From contig CAYLMK010000004.1 in NCBI GenBank assembly GCA_964384945.1, positions 264,109 to 328,108 of the forward strand: a stretch of DNA of 64,000 bases, in the 5' to 3' direction. This DNA is from an uncultured Thermodesulfobacteriota bacterium (GTDB taxonomy: Bacteria > Desulfobacterota > DSWW01). Below, one piece after another: positions 3,414 to 33,071 of this stretch; the stretch's first letter is position 1, and each line of letters begins with the position of its first letter. Made by a program: the position numbers and the translations under genes. The notes under the pieces are model-generated. The model was not told the DNA's origin. It was given only the letters and a program-made list of their open reading frames with translations, and searched no databases.

Positions 3414-4058
3414 TCATGTCGCCAGGAGGGGCAGTCCTGTCAGTTCCTCGAGGCTCCGGATGACCACGGTTGCGCCTCCACGGATGAGCGCCGCCGCCGA
3501 GAACTTCCTGTTTTCCACGCCGATCGCGGCCATGCCCGCGTTCCCGGCCAGGGTCATGTCCTGCGGCATGTCGCCCACGTAGACGCATTCCGCCGGATGG
3601 AGGCCCATCTTTTCCGCCATGAAGAGCAAGGTGTCCGGAGCCGGTTTCGGCTTCCTGGCCTCCTCGCCCGCCACGACCATCTCGAACAGACCGAGAAAGT
3701 CCCCCCCCAGGGCATCCACCTGTTTTCTCGTGACGCCCGTGAACAGACCCAGCCGGTAGCGGTCCTTCAACGAAGCGAGGGTCTCCCGGGCCTTTGGGAA
3801 AAAGAGATCTCTGCCCCGGGTGATTTTCCAGTAGTTCTCGACCTTCTCCGAAGCCAGAGCCCGCGGGTCCGCCTCGATCCCGTTCTCCCGGAGGACCTGT
3901 TCGATGATGTGCGAGGTGGGCTTGCCGAGAAGCAGATCGAGCCTTTCGCGGCGGACCGCCAGGCCGAACCTCTCGAAGACCATCTGAAAGGCCCGGATGT
4001 TGTATTCATAGTCGTCGAGCAGGGTACCGTTCAGGTCGAAGAGGATGCATCGGATCAT
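3414..4058 (-). CDS. HAD-superfamily hydrolase (phosphatase-like); last gene of the long minus-strand operon
   Basis: HAD motif I (ILFDLNGTLLDD) lies at the internal Met. The ORF extends to 4262 but that upstream part is low-complexity. The chosen ATG sits 5 nt after the stop of the preceding gene. C-terminal VYVGDMPQD is HAD motif III. Confidence 0.75.
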   Translation of the reverse strand: MIRCILFDLNGTLLDDYEYNIRAFQMVFERFGLAVRRERLDLLLGKPTSHIIEQVLRENGIEADPRALASEKVENYWKITRGRDLFFPKARETLASLKDRYRLGLFTGVTRKQVDALGGDFLGLFEMVVAGEEARKPKPAPDTLLFMAEKMGLHPAECVYVGDMPQDMTLAGNAGMAAIGVENRKFSAAALIRGGATVVIRSLEELTGLPLLAT

Positions 4059-4065
4059 GGCAGAC

Positions 4066-7000
4066 TCATGGGTTGCGGCCCTCTCGTGTTCCGCGGCCTT
4101 CTTCCGCATCGCCGGGACGGGCGGCGAAGGGCTCGAACAGGACGCGGGCAAGCCCGGGGTCGTCTTCGGCATGGTGGATGGCGGCCTCGACTTCCTCTGC
4201 CCGGGCGGTTCCCCAGTAGCAGTGCGGCGCGGCCAGGGGGGGGCGATCCGCAGGGTCGGCATTGAAAAGCTGGATGCCCTCGTTCCCGAAAATCCGGTTG
4301 TACTCGAAGATCATCGCTCCGTTCAGATAGACGCCTCCGCTGCCGGCAGGCGTGCCCGCCCTGTTGCGGCTCACCGTGTTCCCGCGGAACACCTCGTTCT
4401 TGATGCTCATCCCCCAGAAGTTCAGGAACACTCCGCCTCCGTGGTCGCCGCCGCAGCGGTTGTCCAGAATCCGGTTCTTCTCGAGCGAGCTGTTCGTTTC
4501 GGCGTAGACGCCGCCTCCCTCCGAAGAGCTGTTCCGGACAATTTCATTGTCCTGGATCAGGGCAAAGGTCGCAAACAGGCCGCCTCCCTTTCCCCGGGCC
4601 TCGTTGGCGAGAATGCGGTTGCCGACCATGGCGGACCGGGAGAGCCACACTCCTCCGCCGTCGCCGCCCGACCGGTTGCCCTCGATCCGGTTCCCGGACA
4701 GGTTCACCGCCGTGTTCGACCGGTAGCCGTAACCGAAAACGCCCCCTCCATCCTCGCCGGCCTCGTTCCGGAGGATCTCGTTGTTCAGGATGTAGATGAG
4801 CTGGCTCCCGTACGCGTAGATGCCCCCGCCGTTCGACGGGCTTCGATTCTCGACGATCCGGTTGTGCTCGATCCGCGCGGCCGCATCCCGGATCGAGATG
4901 CCGCTGCCTCGGTTCTTCCGGAGGACGCAGTTCGCAACCCGCGACGTTGCCCCCTCGATGAGCACCCCCATGCCGTGTTCGATGATAGAGTGCTCGAGGA
5001 GAACCGGCGCCGAGCCGGTCTCCGCCTCGCCGGGGGTTTCCGCCTCCCCCTGCGCCTGTCCATCGAAGAACAGGTGGCCCCAGGGCGACTCCGGATCCCC
5101 GGTGAAAAGGACCGGCCTCGCCGGCTCCCCGCGGGCGGCCCAGGCGCCGCGCACGCGGAAGTTCGCACCGCGCGCGATCTCCATCCTCGTGCCAGGAAGA
5201 AGCTCGACCTTCACGCCGCTCGGCACGAACACGTTTCCGGTCACCGTGTAGGTCGCGCCCCCGGACTGCCCGAAAACCGTGTCCTCTCGCAAAGGCCCCT
5301 CGACAATGTTTGGGGCCGCAGGCGGGGTACAGAAGCGCGTGGCCGCAGACCAGTCGGTCCAGTTCCCGTCCGTCCCCTGGAAGGCGACGCGCCAGGCGTA
5401 CTCCCTGCCGGGCCGCAGGACGCCCTCGGGCAGCGCAAGCGAGTCGTTCCCTCCCACAGGACCGCTGTCGAAAAGAGGCGTGGAGAAATCCACGGGGATC
5501 TCGCTGATCACCCAGCGGGCCCCGGCCCGCGATTCCTCCGCCATGTCGGCAACCGCCTGAAGCAGAAGCACGGCCTCCGCTGCAGGGTCGCATCGGTCGG
5601 GCCGGACCGCGCGAATTCCCCGTGGGGCTGTTGCGGCCTGCTCGCTTCCGGAGCCTCCGACCGGAACCGGCAGCGGCCGGGAGAGGGCGCTCTCCACGAT
5701 CTCTCCTTTCGCCTCCTCCCGGTAGGCGGACAGGCAGAACAGGGAGGCCTCGGGGGACGGCCGGGCGAGCCGGACCGAACGTTCTCGGCCGTCCAGGGCC
5801 TGTCCGGTCGCCCGGGGAGGCCCGCCTTCTCCAAACCCGTAGAGACGAAACCCGCTCACCGTCACGTCCGGCGGGTACGTCCAGCGAAGGACCCACTCCT
5901 GACCCTCCGCCTGAACGGTCAGAAAGTCCGGAGGGGGAGGAGGCGCCTCGGGAATCCAGCGTTCCCGCAGTTCGTGCCAGTCGACCAGGCCCCGTTCGGC
6001 GTCGTCGAGCCAGTCGTAGATACGCGAGATCACGACCTCCCGGTCTCGGGTCCCCCAGTAGTTCTCCCCCGCGTCCAGGTCCGGGGCCAGCCTGTGGGTC
6101 TGCACGCGCAGGGCATAGCCCAGGCTGGCCACAATGTTGTTCCGCCTGAGTTCAGGCCCGCCGGAAACCACGATGGCCTCCCCGGGCTCCTCCCCCTTCG
6201 ATCCGTTGCCGTAGAAGGTGTTCTCCTCCACCCGGCCGTCGGCGTAATAGAAGAGCCCCCCTCCCAGGAAAGGAGACGCCGTGTTGTACGCCAGGGAGTT
6301 CCCGCGGATGAGGCTCCCCTCCGAGTAGATCCCGCCCCCGCGGCCTGCCTGGTTCGACTCGATCCGGTTCTTCTCGACCCTGCCGCCCAGGGCGAAGAGC
6401 CCTCCTCCGGAATCCTCCGCCACATTGTCTGCGATCAGGTTCCCTGCCACCTCGCACCGGAACGCAACGAGTCCGCCCCCGTATCGATCACTCCGGTTCC
6501 GCCAGATTCGGTTGTTCAGGATGGACACCCTGCCCTTGTCGTATGCATAGGCATAGATCCCTCCGCCGCCGTCGCGGCCCCCGCTGGAGATATTGTGATG
6601 GACGTCGTTGCCCTCGACGACCACCTCCCGGTCCGAGTAGACGACCATGCCGCCGCCGTTCCCCGAGGTATCCTCGAGCTCGGTCGAGTTGCCGTAGATC
6701 AAGTTCCCCGCAACCCTTCCCCCGGAAAACTCCAGGCTGATCGGCGTATCGACGTTGTCGCGAAAGATCGAGGACTCGATCTGGATTTCCGTGTCCCTCG
6801 CCTTGATCCCGCGCCCTCCCTCGACGATGCAGTGCCGAAAGAGGTCGGGCTGAAGCCTGCCGTCCTCTCCCGCCTTGCCGCCGAGGCAGTCGATCTTGTC
6901 CCAGGGTTCCTTCTGCAAGGGGCGGAAGGCGATCGGACGCTCCCGGCTTCCCCGGGCGACGATGCGCCCCTGGCAGTGAATGCTCACATCCGGTCCCAAT

Positions 7001-7260
7001 CGCACCTCGACGCCCGGCTCGATCGTGAGGGTGGCCTCGGGCACGATCAGGAAAGACTCCGTGATCCGATAGGGGCTCTTGCGCTGCTTCCAGACCGTGT
7101 CCCTGTCCATGGTCTTCACGCCCAGATCCGGGGGATGGAGCAGGAGCGAGATCTTCTCGCAGGATGCGCTGAGGGCGGCCAGCAGGACCGCCGCGGCCAG
7201 GGCCCCCCGCTTCCTCCTCTTGGGGGGCCCTCCCGCCCCAACCCGGCCAGGCTTTCCCAT
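4066..7260 (-). CDS. Giant secreted lipoprotein with two right-handed parallel beta-helix (PbH1/NosD-like) domains plus Ig/FN3-like spacer, 1064 aa
   Basis: RBS GGAGG 10 nt upstream of the ATG at 7260. Signal peptide MGKPGRVGAGGPPKRRKRGALAAAVLLAALSASC contains a lipobox-like SASC. There are dozens of G-rich beta-helix rungs (GGGIYAYA, GGGLFA, NRIxxN) and two YWGT motifs (ENYWGT, HCYWGT), as in NosD/disaggregatase-like proteins. Confidence 0.8.
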   Translation of the reverse strand: MGKPGRVGAGGPPKRRKRGALAAAVLLAALSASCEKISLLLHPPDLGVKTMDRDTVWKQRKSPYRITESFLIVPEATLTIEPGVEVRLGPDVSIHCQGRIVARGSRERPIAFRPLQKEPWDKIDCLGGKAGEDGRLQPDLFRHCIVEGGRGIKARDTEIQIESSIFRDNVDTPISLEFSGGRVAGNLIYGNSTELEDTSGNGGGMVVYSDREVVVEGNDVHHNISSGGRDGGGGIYAYAYDKGRVSILNNRIWRNRSDRYGGGLVAFRCEVAGNLIADNVAEDSGGGLFALGGRVEKNRIESNQAGRGGGIYSEGSLIRGNSLAYNTASPFLGGGLFYYADGRVEENTFYGNGSKGEEPGEAIVVSGGPELRRNNIVASLGYALRVQTHRLAPDLDAGENYWGTRDREVVISRIYDWLDDAERGLVDWHELRERWIPEAPPPPPDFLTVQAEGQEWVLRWTYPPDVTVSGFRLYGFGEGGPPRATGQALDGRERSVRLARPSPEASLFCLSAYREEAKGEIVESALSRPLPVPVGGSGSEQAATAPRGIRAVRPDRCDPAAEAVLLLQAVADMAEESRAGARWVISEIPVDFSTPLFDSGPVGGNDSLALPEGVLRPGREYAWRVAFQGTDGNWTDWSAATRFCTPPAAPNIVEGPLREDTVFGQSGGATYTVTGNVFVPSGVKVELLPGTRMEIARGANFRVRGAWAARGEPARPVLFTGDPESPWGHLFFDGQAQGEAETPGEAETGSAPVLLEHSIIEHGMGVLIEGATSRVANCVLRKNRGSGISIRDAAARIEHNRIVENRSPSNGGGIYAYGSQLIYILNNEILRNEAGEDGGGVFGYGYRSNTAVNLSGNRIEGNRSGGDGGGVWLSRSAMVGNRILANEARGKGGGLFATFALIQDNEIVRNSSSEGGGVYAETNSSLEKNRILDNRCGGDHGGGVFLNFWGMSIKNEVFRGNTVSRNRAGTPAGSGGVYLNGAMIFEYNRIFGNEGIQLFNADPADRPPLAAPHCYWGTARAEEVEAAIHHAEDDPGLARVLFEPFAARPGDAEEGRGTREGRNP

Positions 7261-7356
7261 GGTATTCTCGCCTCCTCGCAAACCAGGTCCCAGGTGAAAG
7301 GGAGAAGGGCAAGGCGTCAAAGCGCAACGCAATCGACGGCCATCTGACGCCGACCT

Positions 7357-9594
7357 CTATTCGTATTCGGTCCAGTCGACCTCCGCCCCCGGCCTGACCT
7401 GCTCGATCGCCCTGTCCTCGGGCATCTCCGGAACCTTGTCCATGAACATCAGGAACAGGGTCGCATACTCGATCCACATCTCCGGATCCGGCATCCGGGC
7501 GGCACCGTCCGGCGTGTAATACACGTAAGGCATCTTCGTGCCCCGACCTGCGTAGCGGTCCGGGTTGCGCAAGAAGTTCTTGATCCAATCGTACCGCAGG
7601 CGGCCCTTGGTGAGCATCAGATTGATGGACAGATCCTCCAGCTTCACGCCCTCGGGAAGGGCGCCGTCAAAAGAGACCGGGTGGCACTGCATGCACTTGT
7701 CGGTCTTCACCCGGTATTCCCCCATCTCCAGGACCTCGGGCTCGTAGTCGTCCCGGACCGGCAGCGAGACGTAGGGGACCCGGACGGTTTCCTGGACCTC
7801 GGGATCCAGGAGCAGACGAAAGCAGGCGATGAGCGTCTCCCGTTCCTGATAGCCCAAGCCGAACTCCGGCATCCGGATCTTCAGCCACGGTCGCAGCTCC
7901 ACGGGCTTGCTCAGGTACTGGAAGAACCACTGGGGCTGCACCCGCTCCGCCTCGGCGATCAACCGGGGAGGGACCATGGATTTGAGTCCCGTGAAGCGGT
8001 CGATGCGGGGCTTGACGTCCTCTTCGAGCTGATGGCACCCGCCGCAGTTGTAATGGCTCAACATCCAGTCGCCCTTCGCAAGGGTCGATTCGTCCGGGCC
8101 AAGCTTCCGGAGATAGGATTCCGAAACGGCGTAGTCCGCGTTGTGAAGATAGTAGACCGTGAGCGACTCGATCTCGCTGTCTTCGAGCCGGTGGTCCGGC
8201 ATCTTCAGCGGCATGTCCTCGCTCGTGTAGATGTCCGGTTTGCGGATCTTGTGATAGAGCCAATCCCACTTGGTGCGGGGCACATCGGACGATCCGAAGG
8301 GAAGCTCGTCCAGCCGCTTCCCGGCCACATCTCCCACCCCCACACCGGGCAGGGGCAGCTTCTCCATGTCCCGGACGACGTGGCATCCGTAACAGCCCAT
8401 GAGCTGGACCAGCCGCTTTCCCTCCCCTGGGTCGCCCCCTTCCGGAAGATCGGCCGGCGCCGGCCCGAGGAGTTCTTCGATCTCCCCGGGTCGCAGGGAC
8501 TCGAGGTAACCGGCCAGGTCCCTTCGTTCCTCTTCGGTAAGCATGAGCCGGGGCATGGCCGTCTGGGGGTTCCACTCGGCCGGCCCTTCAAGCCAGGTGG
8601 CGACCCAGGGGCCGGAGAGCTTCAGGCCCGCTTCGAAGAGGTTCGGAACCCGATCCGTCAGGCAGGCCTCGTTCCGATCGTCGCTGTGGCAGCCCACGCA
8701 CCCCTTCTCCGTGAAGAGGCCCTTTCCGTTCCGCTGAGATGCGCGGTCGCTTCGATAGGCGACCAGCGGCTTGGGCAAGGTCCGCTGTCCCATCAGATAG
8801 GCGACGATGTGGAGAATCTCCTCCTCCTGGAGGCGGAAGGTGGGCATCCGGTTCCTGGGGCGGACGGAGGCGGGGTCCTTGATCCACCGATAGAGCCAGG
8901 CAGGCCGGGAGACCTTCTCGCCGATCCCCTCGAAAGGCGTGGACATCCGGGGAAGATCCCTTGTCATGCGGGCCTCGTGGCAGCCGTAGCATCCGTGCTC
9001 CAGGAACAGGATCCGGCCTTGCTCGGCCTTCTCGGCCCCCCGCAGGCGGTGCGGGCTTTCGTGGCACCCGAGGCAGAGCCCCTGCACGAACCTCGACGGA
9101 ACGCGCGGCAGCGGCCAGTTCTGCTCGTAGCCGTGCGCCTTCTCCGCGGTCAAGCCGACCCCCTGGCCGTGATGGCACAGGGTACAGCCGAAGCGGCCGG
9201 GCTTGTGGTCGGCCAGAATCTCGGGGGGGTGATACCGCAGGGGGTTCGCCGCGTCCCGGAACAGCGGTTCCTCCAGGGCCAGATGGCACGTCCGGCACAG
9301 ATCGCGGACCCCCGCGTCGGGCAGAAAGATCTGCTCGATCCGGGGTCCGGCCCCGTCACGGGCCTTCTCGAGCAGCCGGGACCATTTCTTCAGGGCCTCC
9401 TCGTCCCCCTCCTCGGTCGCGACCCGGAGGTTGCGCTCCACCGCCTCCCTGAACGTTCCCCTGTAGTCTCTCTGGAAGCCCTTCCACGCCTGCCTGCCCT
9501 CGGAACGAAACACCACGAGAGACACGGCGAGGCAGGCTGCCGCCAGCGGGACAAACAACATTCGCGATCTGGTTCCTGCCCGAATCGTTGCCAT
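7357..9594 (-). CDS. Octaheme c-type cytochrome, membrane-anchored (8 CxxCH motifs)
   Basis: Heme-binding motifs: CRTCH, CTLCHH, CLGCH, CYGCH, CVGCH, CYGCH, CGGCH, CMQCH. N-terminal hydrophobic anchor. Located 15 nt downstream of the cytochrome b gene. Confidence 0.85.
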   Translation of the reverse strand: MATIRAGTRSRMLFVPLAAACLAVSLVVFRSEGRQAWKGFQRDYRGTFREAVERNLRVATEEGDEEALKKWSRLLEKARDGAGPRIEQIFLPDAGVRDLCRTCHLALEEPLFRDAANPLRYHPPEILADHKPGRFGCTLCHHGQGVGLTAEKAHGYEQNWPLPRVPSRFVQGLCLGCHESPHRLRGAEKAEQGRILFLEHGCYGCHEARMTRDLPRMSTPFEGIGEKVSRPAWLYRWIKDPASVRPRNRMPTFRLQEEEILHIVAYLMGQRTLPKPLVAYRSDRASQRNGKGLFTEKGCVGCHSDDRNEACLTDRVPNLFEAGLKLSGPWVATWLEGPAEWNPQTAMPRLMLTEEERRDLAGYLESLRPGEIEELLGPAPADLPEGGDPGEGKRLVQLMGCYGCHVVRDMEKLPLPGVGVGDVAGKRLDELPFGSSDVPRTKWDWLYHKIRKPDIYTSEDMPLKMPDHRLEDSEIESLTVYYLHNADYAVSESYLRKLGPDESTLAKGDWMLSHYNCGGCHQLEEDVKPRIDRFTGLKSMVPPRLIAEAERVQPQWFFQYLSKPVELRPWLKIRMPEFGLGYQERETLIACFRLLLDPEVQETVRVPYVSLPVRDDYEPEVLEMGEYRVKTDKCMQCHPVSFDGALPEGVKLEDLSINLMLTKGRLRYDWIKNFLRNPDRYAGRGTKMPYVYYTPDGAARMPDPEMWIEYATLFLMFMDKVPEMPEDRAIEQVRPGAEVDWTEYE

Positions 9595-9609: not shown

Positions 9610-10410
9610 CTAAATCGAGAAGTAAGGCGTCGTCAGGATGTACTTCACATGGAAGAAGATCCGCAGGATGATCTTGCCCACCACGCCGAACATCAGGAGC
9701 ACGAAGGTCCACGCGACCACGTGCTTGACGACGCCCATCTTCCGAAAGAGCCGCCGGTTCGCCAAGGCCGGCAGCACGAGACCCAGGGCAAAATAGGCCA
9801 CCAGCAGTGCGAGGCCGAACCCCATCGGGAGACTCGTCAGTTCCTGTTCGGCCGTCTTGGGCACGGCCCAGTCCTCCCAGGGCCAGTAGAACTGCCAATT
9901 CGGGCCGCGAAGAAACTGGCCGATGAAGATCAGAACGAACCACATGAGGTATCCGAACAGGAAGAGGGGCACCACGAGGGGCCGCTCGCGGAGGCCGTAC
10001 TTGCCCACGCCCTTGGGGTTCGGATCGAGGTAGGGAAGAAGCGCGAGCCCGAGGATGATGAGCAGCGGCGCGCCTACGCCGGCGATCCAGGGGTCGAAAT
10101 AGACCAGCAAATCCTGAAGGCCCACGAAGTACCAGGGCGCCTTGGCCGGGTTCTCGGTCCAGTTCGGGTCCGCGACGGCCTTGAGCGGGGCGTCGACCTT
10201 GTACGACCAGACGATCAGGACCAGCGTGGCCGCCAGAACGGCGAGGAGCTCCTTGAAGGCGAGGTCCGGGAAGGCGAAAACCTCCTCACTCCGCCCCGCA
10301 TCTTCGCTTGCGTTCTTCTGTCCCATCCGTTTTTCCGATTCAATCGCCGACAACTGAGCGTCCCCCGGCTGTTGGCTTTTGGCTCTGAGCCCGTACCCCC
10401 TCCCCACCAT
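9610..10410 (-). CDS. Cytochrome b C-terminal half (subunit IV/PetD-like) of a split cytochrome b
   Basis: PWYF motif (APWYFVGLQDLL), equivalent to PEWY of PetD. Three transmembrane helices. The start is ambiguous: TTG at 10452 (12 nt after the upstream stop), ATG at 10410, or ATG at 10326. None has a good SD sequence. The middle ATG is reported. Confidence 0.7.
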   Translation of the reverse strand: MVGRGYGLRAKSQQPGDAQLSAIESEKRMGQKNASEDAGRSEEVFAFPDLAFKELLAVLAATLVLIVWSYKVDAPLKAVADPNWTENPAKAPWYFVGLQDLLVYFDPWIAGVGAPLLIILGLALLPYLDPNPKGVGKYGLRERPLVVPLFLFGYLMWFVLIFIGQFLRGPNWQFYWPWEDWAVPKTAEQELTSLPMGFGLALLVAYFALGLVLPALANRRLFRKMGVVKHVVAWTFVLLMFGVVGKIILRIFFHVKYILTTPYFSI

Positions 10411-10464
10411 TCTGCGGGAGGAGGCGGCGGGGAGCTGACTGCTGATAGCCAATGGCTTTTCTTT

Positions 10465-11220
10465 TCACAACGCCCTCGACATGCCTCCGTCCTTTCGCAC
10501 CCTCCAGAAGTGGACGAACATCAGCAGGCCTGCCACGAACGGAAGGAGCACACAGTGAAGCACGTAGAAGCGAAGAAGGGCGCTGGCCCCCACGTCGGAG
10601 TCTCCCAGCAGAAGGAAACGCATATCGTTGTCCGGGTGGATGCCGAACCACTCGTGGAAAGGGCCGTCCGACCCGAGAAAGGGCGTGGCGGCGGCCATCT
10701 TCGTCCCCACCGTGATGGCCCACAGCGCGATCTGATCCCAGGGGAGAAGATAGCCGGTGAAGCTCAACAAGAGCGTAACCACCAGCAGCATGACGCCCAC
10801 CACCCAGTTGAACTCCCGCGGGGGCTTGTACGAGCCGGTCAGAAAGACCCGCAGCATATGCAGCATGACGAGCAAAACCATCGCATGGCCCGCCCACCGG
10901 TGCATGTTCCTCAAGAACATGCCGAACCGAACCGTGTGCTCGAGAAGCTTCATGTCCAGATAGGCGTACTCGGGCACGGGACGGTAATAGAACATGAGGA
11001 GGATGCCGGTCACTGTCTCCGCGAGGAACATGAAGAAGGTCAGCCCCCCGAGACAAAAGGAGTAGCGCAGCCGGAGGGTCTCCCGGGGAAGGGTGACCGG
11101 ATGAAGGTGCAGAATCGAGTTGGAGACGATCGCAAGGGCCCGGTTCCGCGGCGTGTCCTCGAAGCGGTGCCGGAAGATGGATCGCCAAAGCTGCGACTCT
11201 GTGATTCTTTTCCACGCCAT
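10465..11220 (-). CDS. Cytochrome b/b6 N-terminal half (heme b-binding, quinol-interacting)
   Basis: [32 protein letters not shown] is the hallmark cytochrome b N-terminal segment. Conserved His residues in helices B and D. Internal ATG chosen, 11 nt after the upstream stop. Confidence 0.85.
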
Positions 11221-11231
11221 AACCGCACCGC

Positions 11232-11936
11232 TCAGGCTGTCAGCAGGGTCTGGAGGTAGGCGTACTCCCCGGCGAGGAAGCGGCAGGTGAACTTGACCAG
11301 TTCCCGGTAGAAGAGGATCGCCTCCCGGCACGCATCCTCGGGGAGCCGCTCCACGATCTGCTCCAGCCTCTCCAGGGCCTTGTTCATCCAGAAAAGCGGG
11401 TGCCTCTCCAGGAAGTCCCGCTCGGCACGGCGGTACCCGGCCGGGTCCGAGCCCGTCTGCATGGCCTGGACCTCCTTGAAGGTCAGGTAGTGAAGGAACT
11501 CCATCTCCAGGCAGACGTGATCCGGACGTTCGTCCTGGGCGCCCTCCGCATAGCTCAGCCCGAAGTGGTTGTAAAACAGGATAAGCTCCTTGAGCACGAC
11601 CTTCCGGTCCTCTCTCCAGGCGCCCTCCACCAGCGGGCAAGGCGGGCCGCCCGGCCCGGATTCGAAGAGACGGATGAACTCCACCTCGATCTGCTCATCC
11701 TCGAGCCGGGACGGAAGACGCAGGCCCTTCCGCTCGCCCTCCTCCAGAGAAAACGGATAGGGAAGCCGGGCCAGCAGGATTTCAAGGGCCTCTGCGAGCT
11801 CGCCCTGCCTTGCCTGCCGGCGGAAGGAGGCATCCGGATACCGGTAGGCCTCGGCCAGGATCGCATACAGCCGGCTCCGGTTTCCCGAGCGTTTCTCCGT
11901 GTCGGTCTCGAGCGGTCTGCTCCGGATGTCTTCCAT
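11232..11936 (-). CDS. TorD/NarJ-family redox-enzyme maturation chaperone (delta subunit, EbdD/NarJ-like)
   Basis: [22 protein letters not shown] is the TorD-family core. The ATG at 11936 lies 5 nt after the beta-subunit stop. The remaining upstream part of the ORF is low-complexity. Confidence 0.75.
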
Positions 11937-11941
11937 GCTGT

Positions 11942-13084
11942 CTACGCCTGGGACGGTTTTGGAGGGAGCCTTTGCAACAGGGCCGGGTCCTTGGTGAAGG
12001 GCTCGAACATCTTGCCCCACTCCCTGGCAATCAGGATGTCCATCAGCTCCGACTTGCCCCCGCCGCGAACCTTCTTCATCTCGCTCTGCATGGTCTCCAG
12101 GGCCCTGTCCACCTCGGGCCCGAAGAGATAACGCAGGTAGGCCGTCGGAATGCGCGGCTTGGTGGTGTCGATCTTCCCGGTCTCGTCGAGCCTCGGCGGA
12201 GCCAGAGGAGGAACGTAAAACACATTCGGTTCGGTTCCGTATTCCGGGTGGAGGGGCAGCGCGACCTTCCAAACCTTCACGAGTTTGTGGATCGGCCCTT
12301 TTTCATCGTCCAGGAAGCCAAGGAACCGTACGCGGCCCGTGCACTGCCTGGCGCAGGCGGTTGCCACCTCCTGCTCGAGACGCGGGTAACAGAAGATGCA
12401 CTTCATGCTCGTCTTCGTGACGAAGTTGAAATAGATCACCTTGTACGGGCAGGCCTCCAGGCAGAACCGGTAGCCCTTGCACCGGTCCTGGTCGATCACG
12501 ACCGCGCCGTCCTCTTCCCGCTTGTAGATCGCGTTGCGCGGACAGGCATCGATGCAGGCCGCGTATGTGCAGTGGTTGCAGATGCGGGGAAGGTAGAAGT
12601 AGAAGGCGTTCGGGTATTTCCCGCCTCCCTGGTCCTCATCCCAGTTCATGGACCAGTCCGGCTCCGTTCCGTCCGGGTTGCGGGCCTGCAGGTGCTTCTC
12701 TCCCGCCTGGGAGGAGAATACCTCCTCATAGTTGAATTTCCAGAGATCCCCGAAGTCCTTCCGCGTGGGCAGCTCCCCGCGCACCGGGTCCCTGACCTTC
12801 CCGCCGAAGAGCACCTGGTACCCGCCGCCCTTGCGCTCCCAGTCCTTGGGAGACCCTTTCCCGGGCTGTGTGTTCACTTTGTTCCACCACATGTATTCCC
12901 GACCCTCAAGCTGGGTCCAGAGGGACTTGCACGCCATCGAGCAGAGCTGGCATCCGATGCATTTGTTCAGGTCCATCACCATGGCAACCTGGCGCTTGCA
13001 CTCGCGCAGCGTCTCCTTGGCGGCCTGAAACTCCAGGGCGAGTTCCTTTTCCCGTTCGGTCAGCTGTTTCTCGTCAACCGGCAT
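11942..13084 (-). CDS. Type II DMSO-reductase-family molybdoenzyme beta subunit (NarH/EbdB-like, 4 Fe-S clusters)
   Basis: RBS AGGAGAAG upstream of the ATG at 13084. Motifs: VMDLNKCIGCQLCSMACK, EYMWWNKV, CNHCTYAACIDACP, CKGYRFCLEACP, CIFCYPRLEQEVATACARQC. Confidence 0.9.
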   Translation of the reverse strand: MPVDEKQLTEREKELALEFQAAKETLRECKRQVAMVMDLNKCIGCQLCSMACKSLWTQLEGREYMWWNKVNTQPGKGSPKDWERKGGGYQVLFGGKVRDPVRGELPTRKDFGDLWKFNYEEVFSSQAGEKHLQARNPDGTEPDWSMNWDEDQGGGKYPNAFYFYLPRICNHCTYAACIDACPRNAIYKREEDGAVVIDQDRCKGYRFCLEACPYKVIYFNFVTKTSMKCIFCYPRLEQEVATACARQCTGRVRFLGFLDDEKGPIHKLVKVWKVALPLHPEYGTEPNVFYVPPLAPPRLDETGKIDTTKPRIPTAYLRYLFGPEVDRALETMQSEMKKVRGGGKSELMDILIAREWGKMFEPFTKDPALLQRLPPKPSQA

Positions 13085-13146
13085 GGTTCTTCTCCTGTCC
13101 CAGGCTGCGCGACCTTCCCGGAGGTCCCGCTTCGGGTTTGAATGCC

Positions 13147-13830
13147 TCAAACTTCCACCACGAGCCCCATCCACTCCTTGCTGAACGCCTTGACCCCTCC
13201 CCGTTCTCCGTTGGCGCCCTCCCAGGCGGCAAAACCGACCGTGAGGTCCTTCGCGCCCGGTTGGAGATTCACGGCCTCTTCGGCGACCGTGAGCGGGCGT
13301 CCGATGATCACGCACCACTTGCCCTGCTTCCAGTCCGAACAGGAGACGAGCGACGACTGGTCGGTGTAGAGGGAGGTCGCGAGCCCCCGGGCCACCTGGT
13401 TCTTGGGCTTCTCCTTGAAATCGGGCCTCCAGTACCAGCTGTTCGTGGGGTAGTCGTGGGAGCCCATCTCCTTGATCTGGGTCTTCTCCGGGTCCTTGAA
13501 GGGGAGCAGCACGGCGACGCCGTCCGGGAAGGTGCCGATGTCGCCGATCTCGAGGTTGGGCGCCTGGCTGTTCCATTCGATGTGGAAGAAGATCTCCTTC
13601 CCGTTGTGCACCGCCTTCACCTCGATCTCCTTGACCGCGCCGATCTTGGTCTCGTCAAAGGTTGCCTTGATATACGGCGAGGGCTGGTTGGCCAGGGGTG
13701 TCGCGCCCATCTCGATCCGATGTCCGTTCATGCCGGCCCAAACCGGAGCCTTGCAGTTCAGAAGCTCCTGGTGGGAAGCGGACACCTTCCTGACGATCAC
13801 GCTTTCCAACTTCTTTGCTTCCTCCGGCAT
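13147..13830 (-). CDS. Putative gamma subunit (EbdC/DdhC-like EB_dh heme-b domain protein), 227 aa, no obvious signal peptide
   Basis: Strong RBS AAGGAGG 8 nt upstream of the ATG at 13830 (MPEEAKK). Resembles ethylbenzene dehydrogenase gamma from memory (APVWAG, AVHNGKEIFFHIEW, NSWYWRPD, GANGERGGVKAFS). The ORF-track GTG start at 13914 is not favoured. Confidence 0.65.
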   Translation of the reverse strand: MPEEAKKLESVIVRKVSASHQELLNCKAPVWAGMNGHRIEMGATPLANQPSPYIKATFDETKIGAVKEIEVKAVHNGKEIFFHIEWNSQAPNLEIGDIGTFPDGVAVLLPFKDPEKTQIKEMGSHDYPTNSWYWRPDFKEKPKNQVARGLATSLYTDQSSLVSCSDWKQGKWCVIIGRPLTVAEEAVNLQPGAKDLTVGFAAWEGANGERGGVKAFSKEWMGLVVEV

Positions 13831-13935
13831 TTCCGATGCCTCCTTTCGTGAGTCTATGATCTGTAAGCTGTTAGCCATTAGCTGTTGGCCCACCCCGCAC
13901 CCTGGTGCCGTCACTCTTTCGGAGACCGGAGGCCG

Positions 13936-14026
13936 GGCCTGACCCGTGACCCCTGTCCTTTCGCCCTTCGCCTTAACTTGATAATTGCGACCTGATCCCT
14001 GACCCCTGGGCCCTGATCCCTCAACC
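13936..14026. repeat. Two blocks of tandem heptamer repeats (CCTGAYC on plus strand, GGGRTCA on minus strand) between the alpha and gamma genes
   Basis: cctgacccgtgacccctgtcc and cctgatccctgacccctgggccctgatccctcaacc. The same heptamer family occurs at 27401-27423 and 59256-59285. Confidence 0.6.
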
Positions 14027-14029
14027 TTG

Positions 14030-16942
14030 CTACGTCTTCTTCACCTCCACGGCAATCGCGCGGTCGACCGGCTGCAGACACCAGTTCCACCGGTAGTAGT
14101 TCAGGTGACCGTATCCGGCTGCCAGATCCAGCCACTTGATCATCCCCGGGATGGCCGTGTCATAGCTCTTCCACTCCTTGAACATGAAGGGCTCCCAGGC
14201 ATGGTAGATGATTACCTGTCCGGGAGAGGTCCCCTTGCCGGGCCGGGCCGCCGGGCTCACCTTCACATGGATCCGGAACTCGTCGAAGTCGTTCCAGACC
14301 CTCACCAGATCCCCGTCCCGGATTCCCCGCTTTTCGGCATCCTCGGGATTCATGAACATGAACGGCCGCCCCTGATGGGTCCGCATGAGCTGCTCGTCCG
14401 TGATCCAGATGGAATGCACGCTCCAGCGCAGATGCCCGCTGGTCAGGGTCAGGGGATAGTTCCCTCCCATCTTCGGGTTGGGCTTGTGCACGGGCATCTG
14501 TTCGCCGGCCTCGAGGTGCCACGGGTGATCCAGGTAGAATTGCAGCCGCCGGTTGTAGGTGGGATAGGGGAGCTTCTTCGAGCCCGTGTGCCAGGTAAGC
14601 GGCACGATCGGCTCGTCGGGCTTGATGTCTGTGGCCAGGTGCATGGTGATCGGATCGAAGATCGACAGCCCGACAAAACGAACGATGCCCTCTTCGCGCA
14701 TCTTTGCCAGATTGGTTCCTTGCGGAAGGTTGCCCATCATCACGCTCGTCTCCAGGGCGTCTTCCATGATCTCTTCCAGGTTGCTGCAGCCCATGGCCTG
14801 CTTCTCTCGCAGGTTCTCGAGATCGACCTTTCGGCCGCTTCGAAGCTGGAACTCGGTCTTGCCCCTCTTCCGGGCCTCCTGTTCGATCTTGCCGGCGAGC
14901 ATCACGCAGATCTCCCACTCGTTCTTGGCCTCGCCGGGAGGCTCGACCGCCTTGTCCGTCAGCGTCAGCCAGGGAACATGGGGCGTGGGAAAGCGGGTGT
15001 CGAGCTTTTCGTAGAAGCCGGCGCAGGGCAACACGTAGTCGGAGTAGAGAACCGTCGTGCTCCAGCGGGTCTCGAAACCGAAGACGAGCTTGTACTTCTT
15101 CCAGAGGCTGGGCAGTATGTTCTTGTTCCAGCCCCGGTTTTTCCGCGCAGGGCTGGTGCCGATGTAGAAATAGACCGTGGGCTCCTGGTCCGCATAGGGC
15201 AGGGCAAAGCCCTCCCACCACTTTTTTTCCAGGGCCTCCTTCATGTACTCCGGGAATTCGCGCTTCATGGTGGGGCAGTGCCATTCCCTCCTGTCCCAGG
15301 CATCCTTGTACCCGGAATGGAAATAGTAGAGGAAGGCCGGCGGAACCATCGTGTATTCCGTACGGTTTCGCTCCCGCTCGAGCAGCACCGAGAGCATCTC
15401 GTCCGTCCGGGTCGGGTCTTCCGCCTTGAACCGGTTCACGATCCGCTTCTCCTGGGCCAGCCGGAGAGTCGCGCCCAGGGGTCCCCTCTTGGACTTGATG
15501 GCCTGGAAGAGGGCCCCCTCGAACAGGGATTCGTTCCAGCCCCGGATCCCGCTTCCCTTCCTTCCGTAACTGCCGGTCAGGGCCAGAAGAAGGCACATGG
15601 CCCGCTCGATCAGATCTCCATGATAGTACTTGCACGCGTTCCATCCCACCAGCACCTGGATGTGAGGCTTGGCCTTGGCGCACTTCTCGGCAAGGCGGCG
15701 GATCGTGTCCGGGTGGGTTGCACAGTGCGGGGAGGCCTTCTCGGGCGTGTAGTGCCGGTCGAGCTGCTCCTTCAGGAGCGCGAAGGACGGCCGCACCTCG
15801 GCCTGCCCGCCGTCAAGCAGCTTCACGATGAAGGTCCCCTCCAGGGCCGGGTCCACGGGCAGCTTGAGCGTGTCCAGCGGGGCCTTTACGGGGCCCCCTT
15901 TGGCCGCATCCCAAAAATAGAACTGGTCGTCCCGTCCGCCCTGCTCCAGATCCGCAACCCGGAGAAACCGGCCCGTGTCCGTTCGGACCAGCAGGGGAAG
16001 ATCGGTCTGCTCTTTGATGAAGGGGATGTCGATCCAGCCTTTCTCGATCAGCACCTGGCAGACGGCGAGCCCGAGGGCCGCGTCCCCGCCCGGCTCCACG
16101 GGCACCCACTCGTCGGCGTGCATCGCGCTCGGCGAGTAGTCCGGCGCGATCGTCACCACCTCGGCGCCGTTGTACCGCGAAGAGGCGATGAAGTGATAGG
16201 AGGGGATCCGGGTGTAGACCGGGTTCATGTGCCAGATGAGCAGCAGCTTTCCAAAGAACCAGCCGTCCACGGAGTCCATGAACTGAAACTTGCCCACGCT
16301 CTGGTAGATCCCGCGGTTGAAGTCCCCGATCGTGGAGTCCAGATCCAGGGAGGTGCCGCCGAGAAAGTTGAGCAGCCGCGAGGCAGGGATCAGATTCAGG
16401 TATCCTCCGTTTCCCGGGCCTGTCTCGTTGATGATCGACTCGGGGCCCTGGGACTCCAGGCCGTCGAGGATCCCGGAGGCGATCTCGGAGAGGCACTCGT
16501 CCCAGCTCAGCCTCTTCCACTTCCCGCTGCCGCGCTCGCCCACCCGCTTCATCGGGTACTTGAGCCGGTCCGGGTTGTACATCATGTGGCTGTAGAAGGC
16601 CCCCTTCTGGCACCCCCGGGGGTTGAAGTCCGGGCCGGTCGGGTCCACCACCGGGTACTTGGCCGCCTGCTCCTCCCGGAAGACCACCCCGTCCTTTGTG
16701 TAGACGCGCCAGAGGCAGTTTCCCGGGTAACAGTCCACCAGGTGCGTCCCGTACGTCACCTTGTCCCAGGTCCATTCCTTCCTGTGCAGGTCTTCCCACC
16801 TGGCGTAGTCCCACTCCTGGACGACCTTCTCCGTGGCGCAAGCATTGCCCCCCAGGAAACCCAAGGATCGCAAGGAGAGCATCAGCGCGGAAGCGCCCGA
16901 AACCTGAAGAAACTGTCTCCGGTCAAGCTTGATCCCCTCCAT
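14030..16942 (-). CDS. Type II DMSO-reductase-family molybdopterin oxidoreductase alpha subunit, Tat-exported (NarG/EbdA/NxrA-like)
   Basis: RBS AGGAGG upstream of the ATG at 16942. Twin-arginine signal MEGIKLDRRQFLQVSGASALM. FS0 motif HLVDCYPGNCLWRVY...PRGCQKG (H-x3-C-x3-C-xn-C). RLKYPMKR as in NarG. Its ATG overlaps the ferredoxin stop (TGATG). Confidence 0.9.
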   Translation of the reverse strand: MEGIKLDRRQFLQVSGASALMLSLRSLGFLGGNACATEKVVQEWDYARWEDLHRKEWTWDKVTYGTHLVDCYPGNCLWRVYTKDGVVFREEQAAKYPVVDPTGPDFNPRGCQKGAFYSHMMYNPDRLKYPMKRVGERGSGKWKRLSWDECLSEIASGILDGLESQGPESIINETGPGNGGYLNLIPASRLLNFLGGTSLDLDSTIGDFNRGIYQSVGKFQFMDSVDGWFFGKLLLIWHMNPVYTRIPSYHFIASSRYNGAEVVTIAPDYSPSAMHADEWVPVEPGGDAALGLAVCQVLIEKGWIDIPFIKEQTDLPLLVRTDTGRFLRVADLEQGGRDDQFYFWDAAKGGPVKAPLDTLKLPVDPALEGTFIVKLLDGGQAEVRPSFALLKEQLDRHYTPEKASPHCATHPDTIRRLAEKCAKAKPHIQVLVGWNACKYYHGDLIERAMCLLLALTGSYGRKGSGIRGWNESLFEGALFQAIKSKRGPLGATLRLAQEKRIVNRFKAEDPTRTDEMLSVLLERERNRTEYTMVPPAFLYYFHSGYKDAWDRREWHCPTMKREFPEYMKEALEKKWWEGFALPYADQEPTVYFYIGTSPARKNRGWNKNILPSLWKKYKLVFGFETRWSTTVLYSDYVLPCAGFYEKLDTRFPTPHVPWLTLTDKAVEPPGEAKNEWEICVMLAGKIEQEARKRGKTEFQLRSGRKVDLENLREKQAMGCSNLEEIMEDALETSVMMGNLPQGTNLAKMREEGIVRFVGLSIFDPITMHLATDIKPDEPIVPLTWHTGSKKLPYPTYNRRLQFYLDHPWHLEAGEQMPVHKPNPKMGGNYPLTLTSGHLRWSVHSIWITDEQLMRTHQGRPFMFMNPEDAEKRGIRDGDLVRVWNDFDEFRIHVKVSPAARPGKGTSPGQVIIYHAWEPFMFKEWKSYDTAIPGMIKWLDLAAGYGHLNYYRWNWCLQPVDRAIAVEVKKT

Positions 16943-17249: not shown

Positions 17250-17840
17250 CTACGTCAGCTCGATGTAGGCCTTCTTCTGTTCGAATTCGCGGGCCGTCAG
17301 CACGACCCGTGTGTCCACCAGGATTCTCTCTTCACTGTCCAGGCTGATCTTCAGGCGGTCCAGCGGACGGGGCGCCGGGCCCGCGAACTCCGTTCCGTCG
17401 GAATGAAACTCGCTGCCGTGGCAGGGACACTTGAAGATTCGCATTCCGGGAAACCAGTTGACCGTGCAGCCGAGATGGGTGCATCGGGCGAACAGCGCAT
17501 AAATCCTTCGGGCCTCGCGCACGACGAAGAAGCGGTGCGCCTGTTTGAAGCGGCTGTCGATGGAGATCACCCCATGGGCATCGGCAGGCTCGGTGGAGAG
17601 GAAATCCTCGATCCGGCCGATCTCGAAGACGCTGGGAGGATGGAAGACCACGGAAGGGAAGAAGAACCGGACGGTCTGGTAGGTCCCGGCGCCGATTCCG
17701 ACGGCAAGGGCGCCCCATCCCGCGACCGAAATCCCCTTCTGAAGAAATTCCCTGCGGGAGGACGCCCCGGCCTTTCCCGTCGGTTCGGGTGCGGGTTCCG
17801 TAACCATCTCGGGCTGGAGGAAAGAGGACCCTTTGCTCAT
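17250..17840 (-). CDS. Rieske [2Fe-2S] iron-sulfur protein, Tat-exported
   Basis: RBS AGGAG upstream of the ATG at 17840. Tat motif SRREFLQKG. Rieske boxes CTHLGC and CPCHGS. Its ATG overlaps the MerR stop (ATGA). Confidence 0.85.
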   Translation of the reverse strand: MSKGSSFLQPEMVTEPAPEPTGKAGASSRREFLQKGISVAGWGALAVGIGAGTYQTVRFFFPSVVFHPPSVFEIGRIEDFLSTEPADAHGVISIDSRFKQAHRFFVVREARRIYALFARCTHLGCTVNWFPGMRIFKCPCHGSEFHSDGTEFAGPAPRPLDRLKISLDSEERILVDTRVVLTAREFEQKKAYIELT

Positions 17841-23383: not shown

Positions 23384-23408
23384 GATCTCTCCTTGCCGTC
23401 CCTGCTCC

Positions 23409-24053: not shown

Positions 24054-24256
24054 CTCTTCCTCCGGCGCCAGCAAAGGGCCGCCCTCCGGACCGCGCGCGA
24101 TCCCCGCGCGAGGACGGGTCCCGGAAAGGAAAGGCAGAAATCAAGGATCAACGAATTTTACAGTATATGCAACGCGCGGAAAACAATCAAGAATTCCGGC
24201 CCGCGGCCGACGCAAAACATGGGCGAAACCGGAGCCTTTCGGGATGGCGACGCCTG

Positions 24257-30577: not shown

Positions 30578-30608
30578 GGCCGCCCCCTGCCGCCATAAGG
30601 CAGCAGAA

Positions 30609-30637: not shown

Positions 30638-30652
30638 CAAGCCGGCGGGTGC

Positions 30653-33035: not shown

Positions 33036-33071
33036 GGGAAGATCTCCTTCCGTCCAAATGGCCCCATTTTC

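What the first reader, a model, noticed from the sequence alone, without database searches (positions are those of the whole stretch)
4066..7260. 1064-aa double beta-helix (NosD-like) lipoprotein inside a redox operon
There are two long arrays of parallel beta-helix rungs (GGGIYAYA / GGGLFA / NRIxxN periodicity) separated by an Ig/FN3-like segment. Each array ends with a YWGT motif (ENYWGT, HCYWGT). A lipoprotein-type leader is present.

NosD-type beta-helix proteins assist Cu/S cofactor assembly for N2O reductase. A giant paralog translationally linked (96-nt gap) to the cytochromes of a molybdoenzyme operon has no described role. It could be a cofactor maturation or insertion factor, a substrate-binding scaffold, or an extracellular electron-transfer anchor.
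Basis: partly seen in the sequence, partly recalled or inferred. Interest (0 to 1): 0.6.

Follow-up and report, generated by a model that had tools for sequence, protein, structure and literature searches.

The report
Beta-helix lipoprotein of alkane-hydroxylase-type operon
A large exported protein built from two copies of a beta-helix module is always the last gene of an operon thought to let oxygen-free bacteria oxidise alkanes, so it is very probably an undescribed accessory part of that machinery, but what it does is still inferred.

Summary
Window 7260..4066 (minus strand) encodes a 1064-aa protein with a lipoprotein-type signal, two homologous right-handed beta-helix modules, each ending in YWGT, and two FN3 domains between them.

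It is not a NosD family member. It scores 26.6 bits against a cutoff of 300, has no nosZ/F/Y/L neighbours, and no solved NosD appears among its sequence or fold matches.

The operon is more specific than 'a molybdoenzyme operon'. It encodes an ethylbenzene-dehydrogenase-like enzyme (alpha 70-71% identical to the reference 'AhyA' putative anaerobic alkane hydroxylases) joined to its own Rieske/split cytochrome b/octahaem cytochrome c module.

The beta-helix gene directly follows the cytochrome c gene in 42 of 42 informative loci, including contigs carrying a cytochrome c identical to that of Desulfosudis (formerly Desulfococcus) oleivorans. Three further operons found from the cytochrome side also carry it. 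Its divergence tracks the other operon genes (r 0.93-0.98). More distant Rieske/cyt b/cyt c clusters lack it.

Most likely role (inferred, about 0.4): a cofactor-free, membrane-tethered periplasmic docking or scaffold subunit. Rivals are substrate capture, envelope or glycan binding, and maturation. No paper in the searchable library mentions it.

The parts
4066..7260 (-). Gene for the 1064-aa double beta-helix protein (about 111 kDa mature, pI 5.3)
   Evidence: Translation. The same gene call appears on the source contig. Pfam Beta_helix/NosD.
7271..7277 (-). Shine-Dalgarno sequence GAGGAGG, 10 nt before the ATG
   Evidence: Read directly from the sequence.
7261..7356 (-). 96-nt gap between the cytochrome c stop and the start codon. 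No consensus promoter or terminator found.
   Evidence: RNA folding is no better than shuffled sequence, z = -0.34.
7159..7260 (-). Signal peptide with lipobox (residues 1-34, ...AALSAS-C34)
   Evidence: Sequence. The Cys is conserved in nearly all homologues of at least about 40% identity.
5965..7119 (-). Beta-helix module 1 (residues 48-432), with N-terminal cap, 7 NxIxxN rungs and C-terminal cap
   Evidence: AF2 model. Rung motifs. Internal duplication.
6049..6066 (-). ENYWGT motif (residues 399-404) closing module 1
   Evidence: W402 is invariant in 27 homologues.
5671..5943 (-). FN3-like domain a (residues about 440-530)
   Evidence: AF2 beta-sandwich. Foldseek tandem FN3 hits. Profile hits to titin and fibronectin FN3.
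5323..5628 (-). FN3-like domain b (residues about 545-646). Both FN3 domains are absent from the ~840-920-aa forms.
   Evidence: Sub-threshold Pfam Ig_Rha78A_N hit. Short form compared.
4114..5313 (-). Beta-helix module 2 (residues 650-1049), the better conserved half, with 8 NxIxxN rungs
   Evidence: Domain model pLDDT 92.4. Alignment A2 has 62% mean column identity.
4207..4224 (-). HCYWGT motif (residues 1013-1018) closing module 2
   Evidence: C1014, Y1015, W1016 and G1017 are invariant.
7357..9594 (-). Octahaem c-type cytochrome (about 745 aa) with an N-terminal membrane anchor. It always sits directly upstream.
   Evidence: 8 CxxCH motifs. Pfam. Synteny.
9610..11220 (-). Split cytochrome b: b6-like subunit 10465-11220 and subunit-IV-like protein 9610-10326
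   Evidence: Pfam Cytochrome_B. NCBIfam ExtP-like 271 bits and ExtQ-like.
11232..16942 (-). EBDH/AhyABC-like enzyme genes: alpha 14030-16942 (Tat signal), haem-b gamma 13147-13878, FeS beta 11942-13084, NarJ-like delta 11232-11936
   Evidence: Pfam and NCBIfam. Best solved relative is ethylbenzene dehydrogenase alpha, 759 bits. 70-71% identical to reference AhyA loci.
17250..18550 (-). Rieske protein (17250-17840) and MerR-type regulator (17837-18550) at the head of the cluster
   Evidence: Pfam. Conserved position in L003, L005, L043, L047 and L048.
3414..4058 (-). HAD-family hydrolase starting 7 nt after the stop codon. Lineage-specific, not part of the conserved unit.
   Evidence: Present only in the closest relatives.

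Best explanation
The gene encodes a Sec-exported periplasmic protein that is usually lipid-anchored. It arose by tandem duplication of a capped right-handed beta-helix module. In this lineage two FN3 domains act as a spacer between the modules.

It carries no haem, iron-sulfur or obvious metal-binding motif.

It is a fixed, co-inherited component of an operon that encodes two things. One is a periplasmic ethylbenzene-dehydrogenase-like molybdenum enzyme, of the 'AhyABC' type proposed to hydroxylate alkanes without oxygen. The other is a dedicated membrane module made of a Rieske protein, a split cytochrome b and an octahaem cytochrome c.

I infer that it is a non-catalytic structural subunit. 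It would be a membrane-tethered docking platform that holds the soluble alpha-beta-gamma enzyme at the membrane-bound cytochrome module, so that electrons pass between haem b and the octahaem cytochrome.

Shown: the anatomy, export signals, lack of cofactor motifs, strict synteny and co-divergence.
Inferred: physical association and the docking role.
For: - Synteny: the gene directly follows the cytochrome c gene on the same strand in 42/42 informative loci out of 45 with a family member. These include 34 GTDB species-level genomes plus metagenome contigs, with beta-helix identity 36-86%.
- Converse test: three operons found from the cytochrome c side all carry it.
- Its divergence correlates with every operon gene (r 0.93-0.98), most strongly with cytochrome c (0.98).
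- Cytochrome c relatives at 33-36% identity, in Rieske/cyt b clusters lacking the in-operon EBDH-like enzyme, lack the beta-helix gene.
- Genes downstream vary between lineages (HAD, ECH, MoeA, glycosyltransferase), so the beta-helix gene marks the conserved end of the unit.
- An export signal is present in all family members with complete N-termini; the anchor type varies.
- The partners are all periplasmic or membrane-bound: a Tat motif on alpha and Rieske, and a membrane anchor on the cytochrome c.
- It has no CxxCH, CxxC or HxxH motif.
- A strongly conserved aromatic/polar run follows the GGG motif on successive rungs of module 2: YGYRSNTA, WxSRS, FATFAL, YAETNSS, NFWGMSIKNE. It is more conserved than the fold seems to need (my reading), which suggests an interface.
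- Precedents from general knowledge: NosD and AlgG are periplasmic beta-helices that act as docking or scaffold elements.
Against: - There is no direct evidence of physical association. Multimer modelling was not available.
- It is the fastest-evolving gene of the operon (mean 47% identity, against 74% for alpha). Its anchor type varies and the FN3 pair is dispensable. These are features of a peripheral or surface-facing protein rather than a tight core subunit.
- Gaps of up to 214 nt in some loci leave room for separate regulation.
- EBDH-type enzymes known from memory (ebd, cmd, s25d operons) work without such a protein.
- The nearest solved folds are polysaccharide-active beta-helices.
Confidence: 0.4

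Rival explanations
1. Substrate capture or hand-over. The lipoprotein binds the poorly soluble hydrophobic substrate (long-chain alkane or similar) along a groove of the beta-helix. It then passes the substrate from an outer-membrane FadL/TodX-type channel to the periplasmic hydroxylase.
For: - The operon is of the AhyABC type linked in the literature to C12-C20 alkane use (PMC7803848, PMC3653055).
- Neighbourhoods encode fatty-acid-type catabolism: acyl-CoA dehydrogenases, thiolases and AMP ligases. In this window they include a FadL/TodX porin, an acyl-CoA synthetase and ETF.
- Aromatic-rich conserved rungs.
- The protein is specific to this enzyme clade.
Against: - Beta-helices have packed cores and no known lipid-carrying cavity. 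Known periplasmic lipid carriers use other folds (general knowledge).
- The substrate of this enzyme clade is itself unproven. EbdA His192 is replaced by Pro here.
Confidence: 0.2
2. Envelope or glycan-directed protein. It would be a carbohydrate-binding or carbohydrate-modifying beta-helix, or an adhesin, co-expressed with the operon. It might anchor the complex to peptidoglycan or exopolymer, or attach cells to hydrophobic particles.
For: - The closest solved folds to module 2 are polysaccharide-active or adhesin beta-helices: tailspike 6f7k, PL6 chondroitinase B, AlgE4/AlgG epimerases (TM up to 0.49), TibA and PfbA.
- A two-domain PL6 lyase is the top full-length hit.
- Sub-threshold Chlamydia PMP-repeat hits.
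- The profile's wider relatives are giant multi-repeat proteins of several thousand residues, which I read as surface or adhesin-like.
- Fast evolution.
Against: - All fold matches are weak (E no better than 5e-5, 9-15% identity).
- No AlgG-type DPHD motif and no RTX GGxGxD motif.
- No autotransporter barrel or other surface-export domain.
- Strict one-to-one linkage to a respiratory operon is not expected for a general adhesin.
Confidence: 0.15
3. NosD-like periplasmic maturation factor that delivers or inserts a cofactor (metal, sulfur or haem b) into the exported enzyme or cytochromes.
For: - The Pfam NosD domain PF05048 scores above its threshold (51.5 against 23.6 bits).
- Periplasmic location.
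- Operon linkage to a metalloenzyme.
Against: - The NosD family model TIGR04247 scores 26.6 bits against a cutoff of 300.
- No nosF, nosY, nosL or nosZ or equivalent ABC partner is in the window or in the related loci whose gene calls were listed.
- No solved NosD appears in the profile search at E up to 1, or in the top 50 fold matches.
- No conserved Cys/His/Met cluster. Apart from the lipobox Cys, only C144 and C1014 are invariant cysteines.
- The Mo-bisPGD and FeS cofactors of Tat-exported enzymes are inserted in the cytoplasm with the delta chaperone (general knowledge).
Confidence: 0.07
4. Accidental neighbour or independently transcribed gene with no functional tie to the operon.
For: The 96-nt gap (25-214 nt elsewhere) could hold a promoter that the sigma-70 consensus scan does not recognise.
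Against: - 42/42 synteny across lineages labelled by their sources as several phyla.
- The converse test gave 3/3.
- Co-divergence r 0.93-0.98.
- The family has only about 8 full-length clusters at 50% identity, and I found no member outside this context.
Confidence: 0.03

Closest known systems
NosD (accessory protein of nitrous oxide reductase, NosDFY complex)
   Same: A periplasmic right-handed beta-helix encoded in the operon of a periplasmic metalloenzyme. The Pfam NosD domain is detected. NosD is a plausible functional analogy as a docking platform.
   Different: - Fails the NosD family model (26.6 against 300 bits).
- No NosF/NosY ABC partner, no NosL and no NosZ.
- Two beta-helix modules plus FN3 domains instead of one module.
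- Lipoprotein anchor.
- No solved NosD among sequence or fold matches.
EbdABCD / AhyABCD operons (ethylbenzene dehydrogenase and the proposed anaerobic alkane C2-methylene hydroxylase of Desulfosudis (Desulfococcus) oleivorans Hxd3)
   Same: - The surrounding operon belongs here. Alpha is closest to EbdA among solved structures (759 bits).
- Alpha is 70-71% identical to the reference AhyA loci.
- Published ahyA primers land at the expected positions in L038.
- Contigs carrying a cytochrome c identical to Hxd3's have the beta-helix gene in the same place.
   Different: - Published descriptions available to me name only ahyABC(D). No searchable paper mentions a beta-helix gene.
- From memory, the classical ebd, cmd and s25d operons have neither the Rieske/cyt b module nor a beta-helix protein.
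- EbdA His192 is not conserved here.
Periplasmic or secreted polysaccharide-active beta-helices (AlgG, AlgE4, PL6 lyases, phage tailspikes)
   Same: These are the best fold matches for module 2 (TM up to 0.49). A two-domain PL6 lyase is the top full-length hit. From general knowledge, AlgG also acts as part of a periplasmic scaffold.
   Different: Only 9-15% identity with weak E-values. No DPHD motif. No polysaccharide genes are conserved nearby.
Chlamydial Pmp / 'predicted outer membrane repeat' beta-helix proteins
   Same: GGG[IVL][YFW] and NxIxxN rung motifs. PMP-repeat Pfam hits in many homologues and sub-threshold hits in this protein.
   Different: No autotransporter barrel. Lipoprotein or Sec signal only. 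Fixed two-module architecture. Linked to a respiratory operon.

Membership tests
NosD (TIGR04247, nos cluster accessory protein) | Scores at or above the curated cutoff of the NosD family model | tested here: not met
   26.6 bits against a cutoff of 300.
NosD (TIGR04247, nos cluster accessory protein) | Pfam NosD domain PF05048 present | tested here: met
   51.5 bits against a gathering score of 23.6, in 3 stretches. These overlap the generic Beta_helix hits.
NosD (TIGR04247, nos cluster accessory protein) | Encoded with nosF/nosY (ABC transporter), nosL and nosZ | tested here: not met
   None appears among the annotated genes of the 64-kb window or in the gene lists of related loci.
NosD (TIGR04247, nos cluster accessory protein) | Detectable similarity to solved NosD structures | tested here: not met
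Right-handed parallel beta-helix (Pfam PF13229, pectate-lyase-like clan) | Model hit above threshold and a predicted stack of three-stranded rungs | tested here: met
   101.2 bits against 25.9. AF2 models at pLDDT 87.5 and 92.4 show regular short strands with a 23-32 residue period.
Fibronectin type III domains | Beta-sandwich matching FN3 in structure and sequence profile | tested here: met
   Foldseek tandem FN3 hits with probability 1.0, E about 2e-5. Profile hits to titin and fibronectin FN3, E 3e-7 to 1e-4. Pfam fn3 is listed for distant homologues.
Bacterial lipoproteins (signal peptidase II substrates) | Basic N-region, hydrophobic core, then a lipobox ending in Cys | tested here: met
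   KRRKR, then GALAAAVLLAALSAS, then C34. Position -3 is Ser rather than Leu. The Cys is conserved in nearly all homologues of at least about 40% identity. Lipidation itself cannot be tested here.
Chlamydia-type polymorphic membrane protein repeats (PF02415 / TIGR01376) | Repeat models above threshold, and an autotransporter C-terminal barrel | tested here: not met
   17.3 bits against 20.6, and 11.4 against 15. The protein ends with the beta-helix cap and has no barrel domain.
EBDH/AhyABC-type type II DMSO-reductase operon (the context) | Alpha subunit closest to EbdA/AhyA, with haem-b gamma (EB_dh), FeS beta and NarJ-like delta | tested here: met
   - 2IVF_A scores 759 bits, against PcrA 470 and NarG 191.
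- Subunit families confirmed.
- 70-71% identity to AhyA reference loci.
- The ahyA primers map at positions 1378 and 1843 of the L038 gene.
EBDH/AhyABC-type type II DMSO-reductase operon (the context) | EbdA active-site residues Asp223, Lys450 and His192 (residue roles recalled from memory) | tested here: inconclusive
   Asp223 aligns with D207 and Lys450 with K438, both conserved. His192 aligns with Pro176.
EBDH/AhyABC-type type II DMSO-reductase operon (the context) | Demonstrated anaerobic alkane hydroxylation | not testable with these tools
   The activity is only proposed in the literature, even for Hxd3 (PMC3653055, PMC13515206).
Alginate epimerase / PL6 lyase type catalytic beta-helices | Catalytic motif (AlgG DPHD) and close fold match | tested here: not met
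   No DPHD motif. Best TM 0.49, at 11-13% identity. PL6 catalytic residues were not examined.

The most novel reading that the evidence does not exclude
The double beta-helix lipoprotein is an obligatory, previously overlooked subunit of a periplasmic anaerobic alkane-hydroxylase/Rieske-cytochrome b supercomplex. It would both tether the molybdenum enzyme to its octahaem cytochrome partner and present the insoluble hydrocarbon to it. That would give a beta-helix protein a new role in respiratory or hydrocarbon-activating machinery. It would also explain why the enzyme has resisted biochemical reconstitution.
Probability: 0.2. Interest if true: 0.75.

Novelty: new variant of a known kind. Interest (0 to 1): 0.55.

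Why it matters
Oxygen-independent alkane hydroxylation by the 'Ahy' enzyme is one of the unresolved activation routes in anaerobic hydrocarbon degradation. It rests on genome and proteome hints from one slow-growing sulfate reducer.

This work shows that every operon of this type carries two additions beyond the enzyme itself. One is a dedicated Rieske/cytochrome b/octahaem cytochrome module. The other is a fixed beta-helix (lipo)protein. That redefines the unit to be studied, expressed or searched for in metagenomes.

It gives a sharper genomic marker than ahyA alone. It also names a concrete candidate for the missing factor that docks the enzyme or handles the substrate.

It is a caution as well: a Pfam 'NosD' label on such proteins does not imply a NosD function.

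Tried and rejected
- The full-length Foldseek run was dominated by FN3 hits, so I modelled module 2 alone.
- The family profile against PDB sequences found only FN3 proteins.
- The exhaustive profile search showed a small true family (about 8 full-length 50% clusters). Beyond that, its numbers are inflated by giant repeat proteins, so the totals (3729 at E no greater than 1e-30) say nothing about family size.
- The ahyA forward primer had no exact match in any locus. It matched L038 with one mismatch at the expected position.
- I suspected Hxd3 lacked the gene, because neither beta-helix protein search returned a hit from its 3.94-Mb genome. Going through its cytochrome c showed the gene on contigs carrying the identical cytochrome. 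One copy is split by a single-G indel, which may explain the gap.
- The glycyl radical enzyme at 24.9-27.4 kb was checked as a possible alkylsuccinate synthase and rejected. It is closest to glycerol/diol dehydratases.
- The 2016 review by Heider and colleagues on EBDH-like enzymes is not held. I therefore cannot exclude that it mentions the extra genes.
- Model coordinates are not exposed to scripts, so surface and groove analysis was impossible.


Full report
**Observation.** The finding is real, but it lies on the minus strand. The ORF runs from ATG 7260 to stop 4066 and gives 1064 aa. The plus-strand ORF 4045..7347 is its antisense shadow. The source metagenome contig carries the same gene call.
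- Pfam reports Beta_helix (E 5.8e-29, four stretches) and NosD PF05048 (E 1.1e-13).
- Direct motif counts give 7 + 8 NxIxxN rungs at 23-32 residue spacing and 6 + 6 GGG[IVLM] rungs, mostly followed by an aromatic residue. ENYWGT is at 399-404 and HCYWGT at 1013-1018. There is no CxxCH, CxxC, HxxH, DPHD or RTX motif.
- The two halves are collinear homologues over about 385 aa (28% identity, E 1e-31). The protein is therefore a tandem duplication of a whole cap, helix, YWGT, cap module.

**Structure.** AlphaFold2 with a 27-sequence family alignment gives pLDDT 87.5 and pTM 0.81. The model shows beta-helix 48-430, two beta-sandwiches (about 445-525 and 549-645), and beta-helix 650-1045.
- The middle pair matches tandem FN3 structures (Foldseek probability 1.0) and FN3 sequence profiles (titin, E 3e-7).
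- Module 2 modelled alone reaches pLDDT 92.4. Its PDB neighbours are generic and weak: a tailspike, PL6 chondroitinase B, and AlgE4/AlgG epimerases (TM at most 0.49, 9-15% identity). No NosD is in the top 50.

**Export.** The N-terminus (KRRKR, hydrophobic core, LSAS-C34) is a lipoprotein-type signal.
- The Cys is kept in nearly all homologues of at least about 40% identity.
- The most distant subgroup has an ordinary cleavable signal, and a few members have an uncleaved-looking anchor.
- Export is universal among members with complete N-termini. The type of anchor is not.

**Context.** The genes upstream on the same strand are, in order:
- a MerR-type regulator;
- a Rieske protein;
- a Tat-signal molybdopterin alpha subunit;
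- an EB_dh haem-b gamma subunit;
- an FeS beta subunit;
- a NarJ-like delta chaperone;
- a b6-like cytochrome b;
- a subunit-IV-like membrane protein;
- a 745-aa cytochrome c with eight CxxCH motifs and an N-terminal anchor.

Among solved structures, the alpha subunit is closest by far to ethylbenzene dehydrogenase (759 bits, against 470 for perchlorate reductase and 191 for NarG). The cytochrome b scores 271 bits on the ExtP model, just under its cutoff of 290.

A 96-nt gap with a GAGGAGG ribosome-binding site precedes the beta-helix gene. No consensus promoter or terminator lies in the gap, and its RNA fold is no better than shuffled sequence. A HAD hydrolase gene starts 7 nt after the stop.

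**Identity of the operon.** The scan of GTDB representative genomes returned 34 family loci. Most are Thermodesulfobacteriota MAGs (Desulfobacterales, Desulfosudaceae). One is labelled Poribacteria, and a protein hit is labelled Abyssubacteria.
- One locus (L038) comes from Desulfococcus sp. 4484_241. That MAG supplied one of the two reference 'ahyA' genes in PMC7803848.
- The paper's primers ahyA1377for and ahyA1843'rev map to positions 1378 (one mismatch) and 1843 (exact) of the L038 alpha gene.
- The window's alpha subunit is 71% identical to that gene. It is 70% identical to the alpha gene on contigs carrying a cytochrome c identical to that of Desulfosudis oleivorans.
- The operon is therefore of the type the literature calls AhyABC, the proposed oxygen-independent alkane C2-methylene hydroxylase. 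That activity is still only proposed (PMC3653055, PMC13515206).
- Here the EbdA residues Asp223 and Lys450 are conserved, but His192 aligns with a proline.

- A tblastn matrix of the window's operon proteins against all fetched loci shows the order alpha, gamma, beta, delta, cyt b, cyt b-C, cyt c, beta-helix wherever enough DNA is present. Of 45 loci with a family member, 42 have the cytochrome c gene directly upstream on the same strand. The other three start at a contig edge.
- Starting instead from cytochrome c homologues, three further operons (the Hxd3-type contigs, L047 and L048) all have the beta-helix gene next.
- Many additional cytochrome clusters share a contig length with a beta-helix cluster in the two hit lists.
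- More distant cytochrome relatives (36% and 33% identity) sit in Rieske/cyt b clusters without an in-operon EBDH-like enzyme and without a beta-helix gene.
- Genes downstream differ between lineages.
- The identity of the beta-helix protein to the window copy tracks that of every other operon gene (r 0.93-0.98). It is the fastest-evolving member (mean 47%).
- The exhaustive profile search finds only about eight full-length clusters at 50% identity. After those, only giant multi-repeat proteins match.

**Architecture variants.** Desulfobacterales-type members are roughly 840-920 aa. They keep both beta-helix modules and lack the FN3 pair. The two modules are the conserved core. The spacer and the anchor are adjustable.

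**What it is not.**
- NosD membership fails on four counts: the family model (26.6 against 300 bits), the gene neighbourhood, the architecture, and comparison with solved NosD.
- A redox role is unlikely, because no cofactor motif is present.
- An accidental neighbour is excluded by the synteny.

**Most likely role.** All partners are periplasmic or inner-membrane proteins. The soluble alpha-beta-gamma enzyme must meet a membrane-anchored octahaem cytochrome. The beta-helix protein is exported, usually membrane-tethered, cofactor-free, duplicated, and strictly co-inherited.

I therefore favour a structural docking or scaffold subunit (confidence about 0.4). The run of conserved aromatic and polar residues after the GGG motif on successive rungs of module 2 is a candidate interface.

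The rivals and their rough weights are:
- substrate capture or hand-over for a hydrophobic substrate (0.2);
- an envelope or glycan-directed role (0.15);
- maturation (0.07);
- no functional link (0.03).

The steps from 'conserved operon member' to any of these roles are inference.

**Literature.** Searches for AhyA/AhyABC, for Hxd3 with Rieske or cytochrome b, and for beta-helix with ethylbenzene dehydrogenase found no paper mentioning this protein. PMC3509893 notes a split cytochrome b with the haem-ci cysteine in D. oleovorans, but not its gene context. The main review on EBDH-like enzymes is not held, so prior mention cannot be excluded.

**Verdict.** This is a real, well-delimited and apparently undescribed accessory protein family of Ahy-type operons. 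The fold is known. The architecture and context are new. The function is unproven.

Noticed in passing
window 24893-27394 (+), with 27432-28787 (-), 28784-30640 (-), 30942-34931 (-), 20709-24074 (-): An 833-aa glycyl radical enzyme is closest to B12-independent glycerol/diol dehydratases (514 and 487 bits). It is not close to alkyl- or benzylsuccinate synthases (319 and 258 bits). It sits beside a FadL/TodX outer-membrane channel, an acyl-CoA synthetase, a CCG-domain FeS oxidoreductase with EtfAB, and a succinate dehydrogenase/fumarate reductase set. Together these form a neighbourhood for catabolism of hydrophobic substrates.
   Followed up: partly
L043:12395-15048 versus L044:6570-9224: Two contigs carry a cytochrome c identical to that of D. 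oleivorans. Within the beta-helix gene they differ by one G in a G5/G6 run. This splits the gene into 752 + 144 aa in one contig and leaves 884 aa intact in the other. It could be a sequencing error, a laboratory mutation or phase variation. It may explain why no hit from the 3.94-Mb Hxd3 genome appeared in the protein searches.
   Followed up: partly
L038:9803-12229: The Desulfococcus sp. 4484_241 copy is also broken. About 55 residues are missing, with a frameshift just after the PRGGG rung. A 99%-identical intact 896-aa protein (P0114) exists elsewhere. Probably a MAG assembly artefact in the repeats.
   Followed up: partly
window 14030-16942 (-), alpha subunit residues 176, 207, 438: EbdA Asp223 (the Mo ligand) and Lys450 are conserved, but EbdA His192 aligns with Pro176. 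The active site is therefore not identical to that of ethylbenzene dehydrogenase. The residue roles are from memory.
   Followed up: no
window 3414-4058 (-): A HAD-family hydrolase starts 7 nt after the beta-helix stop codon. This tight coupling exists only in the closest relatives (L002, L008-L010, L048). Other lineages have ECH, MoeA or unrelated genes there.
   Followed up: yes
window 446-2233 (+): A 595-aa protein has no Pfam or NCBIfam match. It is nevertheless conserved next to the M42 peptidase and a TonB-dependent receptor in L001, L002 and L048.
   Followed up: no
window 9610-11220 (-): The split cytochrome b scores 271 bits on the NCBIfam ExtP model (cutoff 290), and its partner matches ExtQ weakly. 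These are the b-type cytochromes of the Geobacter selenite/tellurite-reduction operon. Whether electrons flow from quinol to the enzyme or in reverse is not settled by sequence.
   Followed up: no
L005, L043, L045 (between the Rieske and alpha or cyt b genes): Several lineages carry an extra small ferredoxin gene (97-124 aa, Fer4) after the Rieske gene. The window lineage lacks it; its 308-nt Rieske-alpha gap holds no such gene.
   Followed up: no
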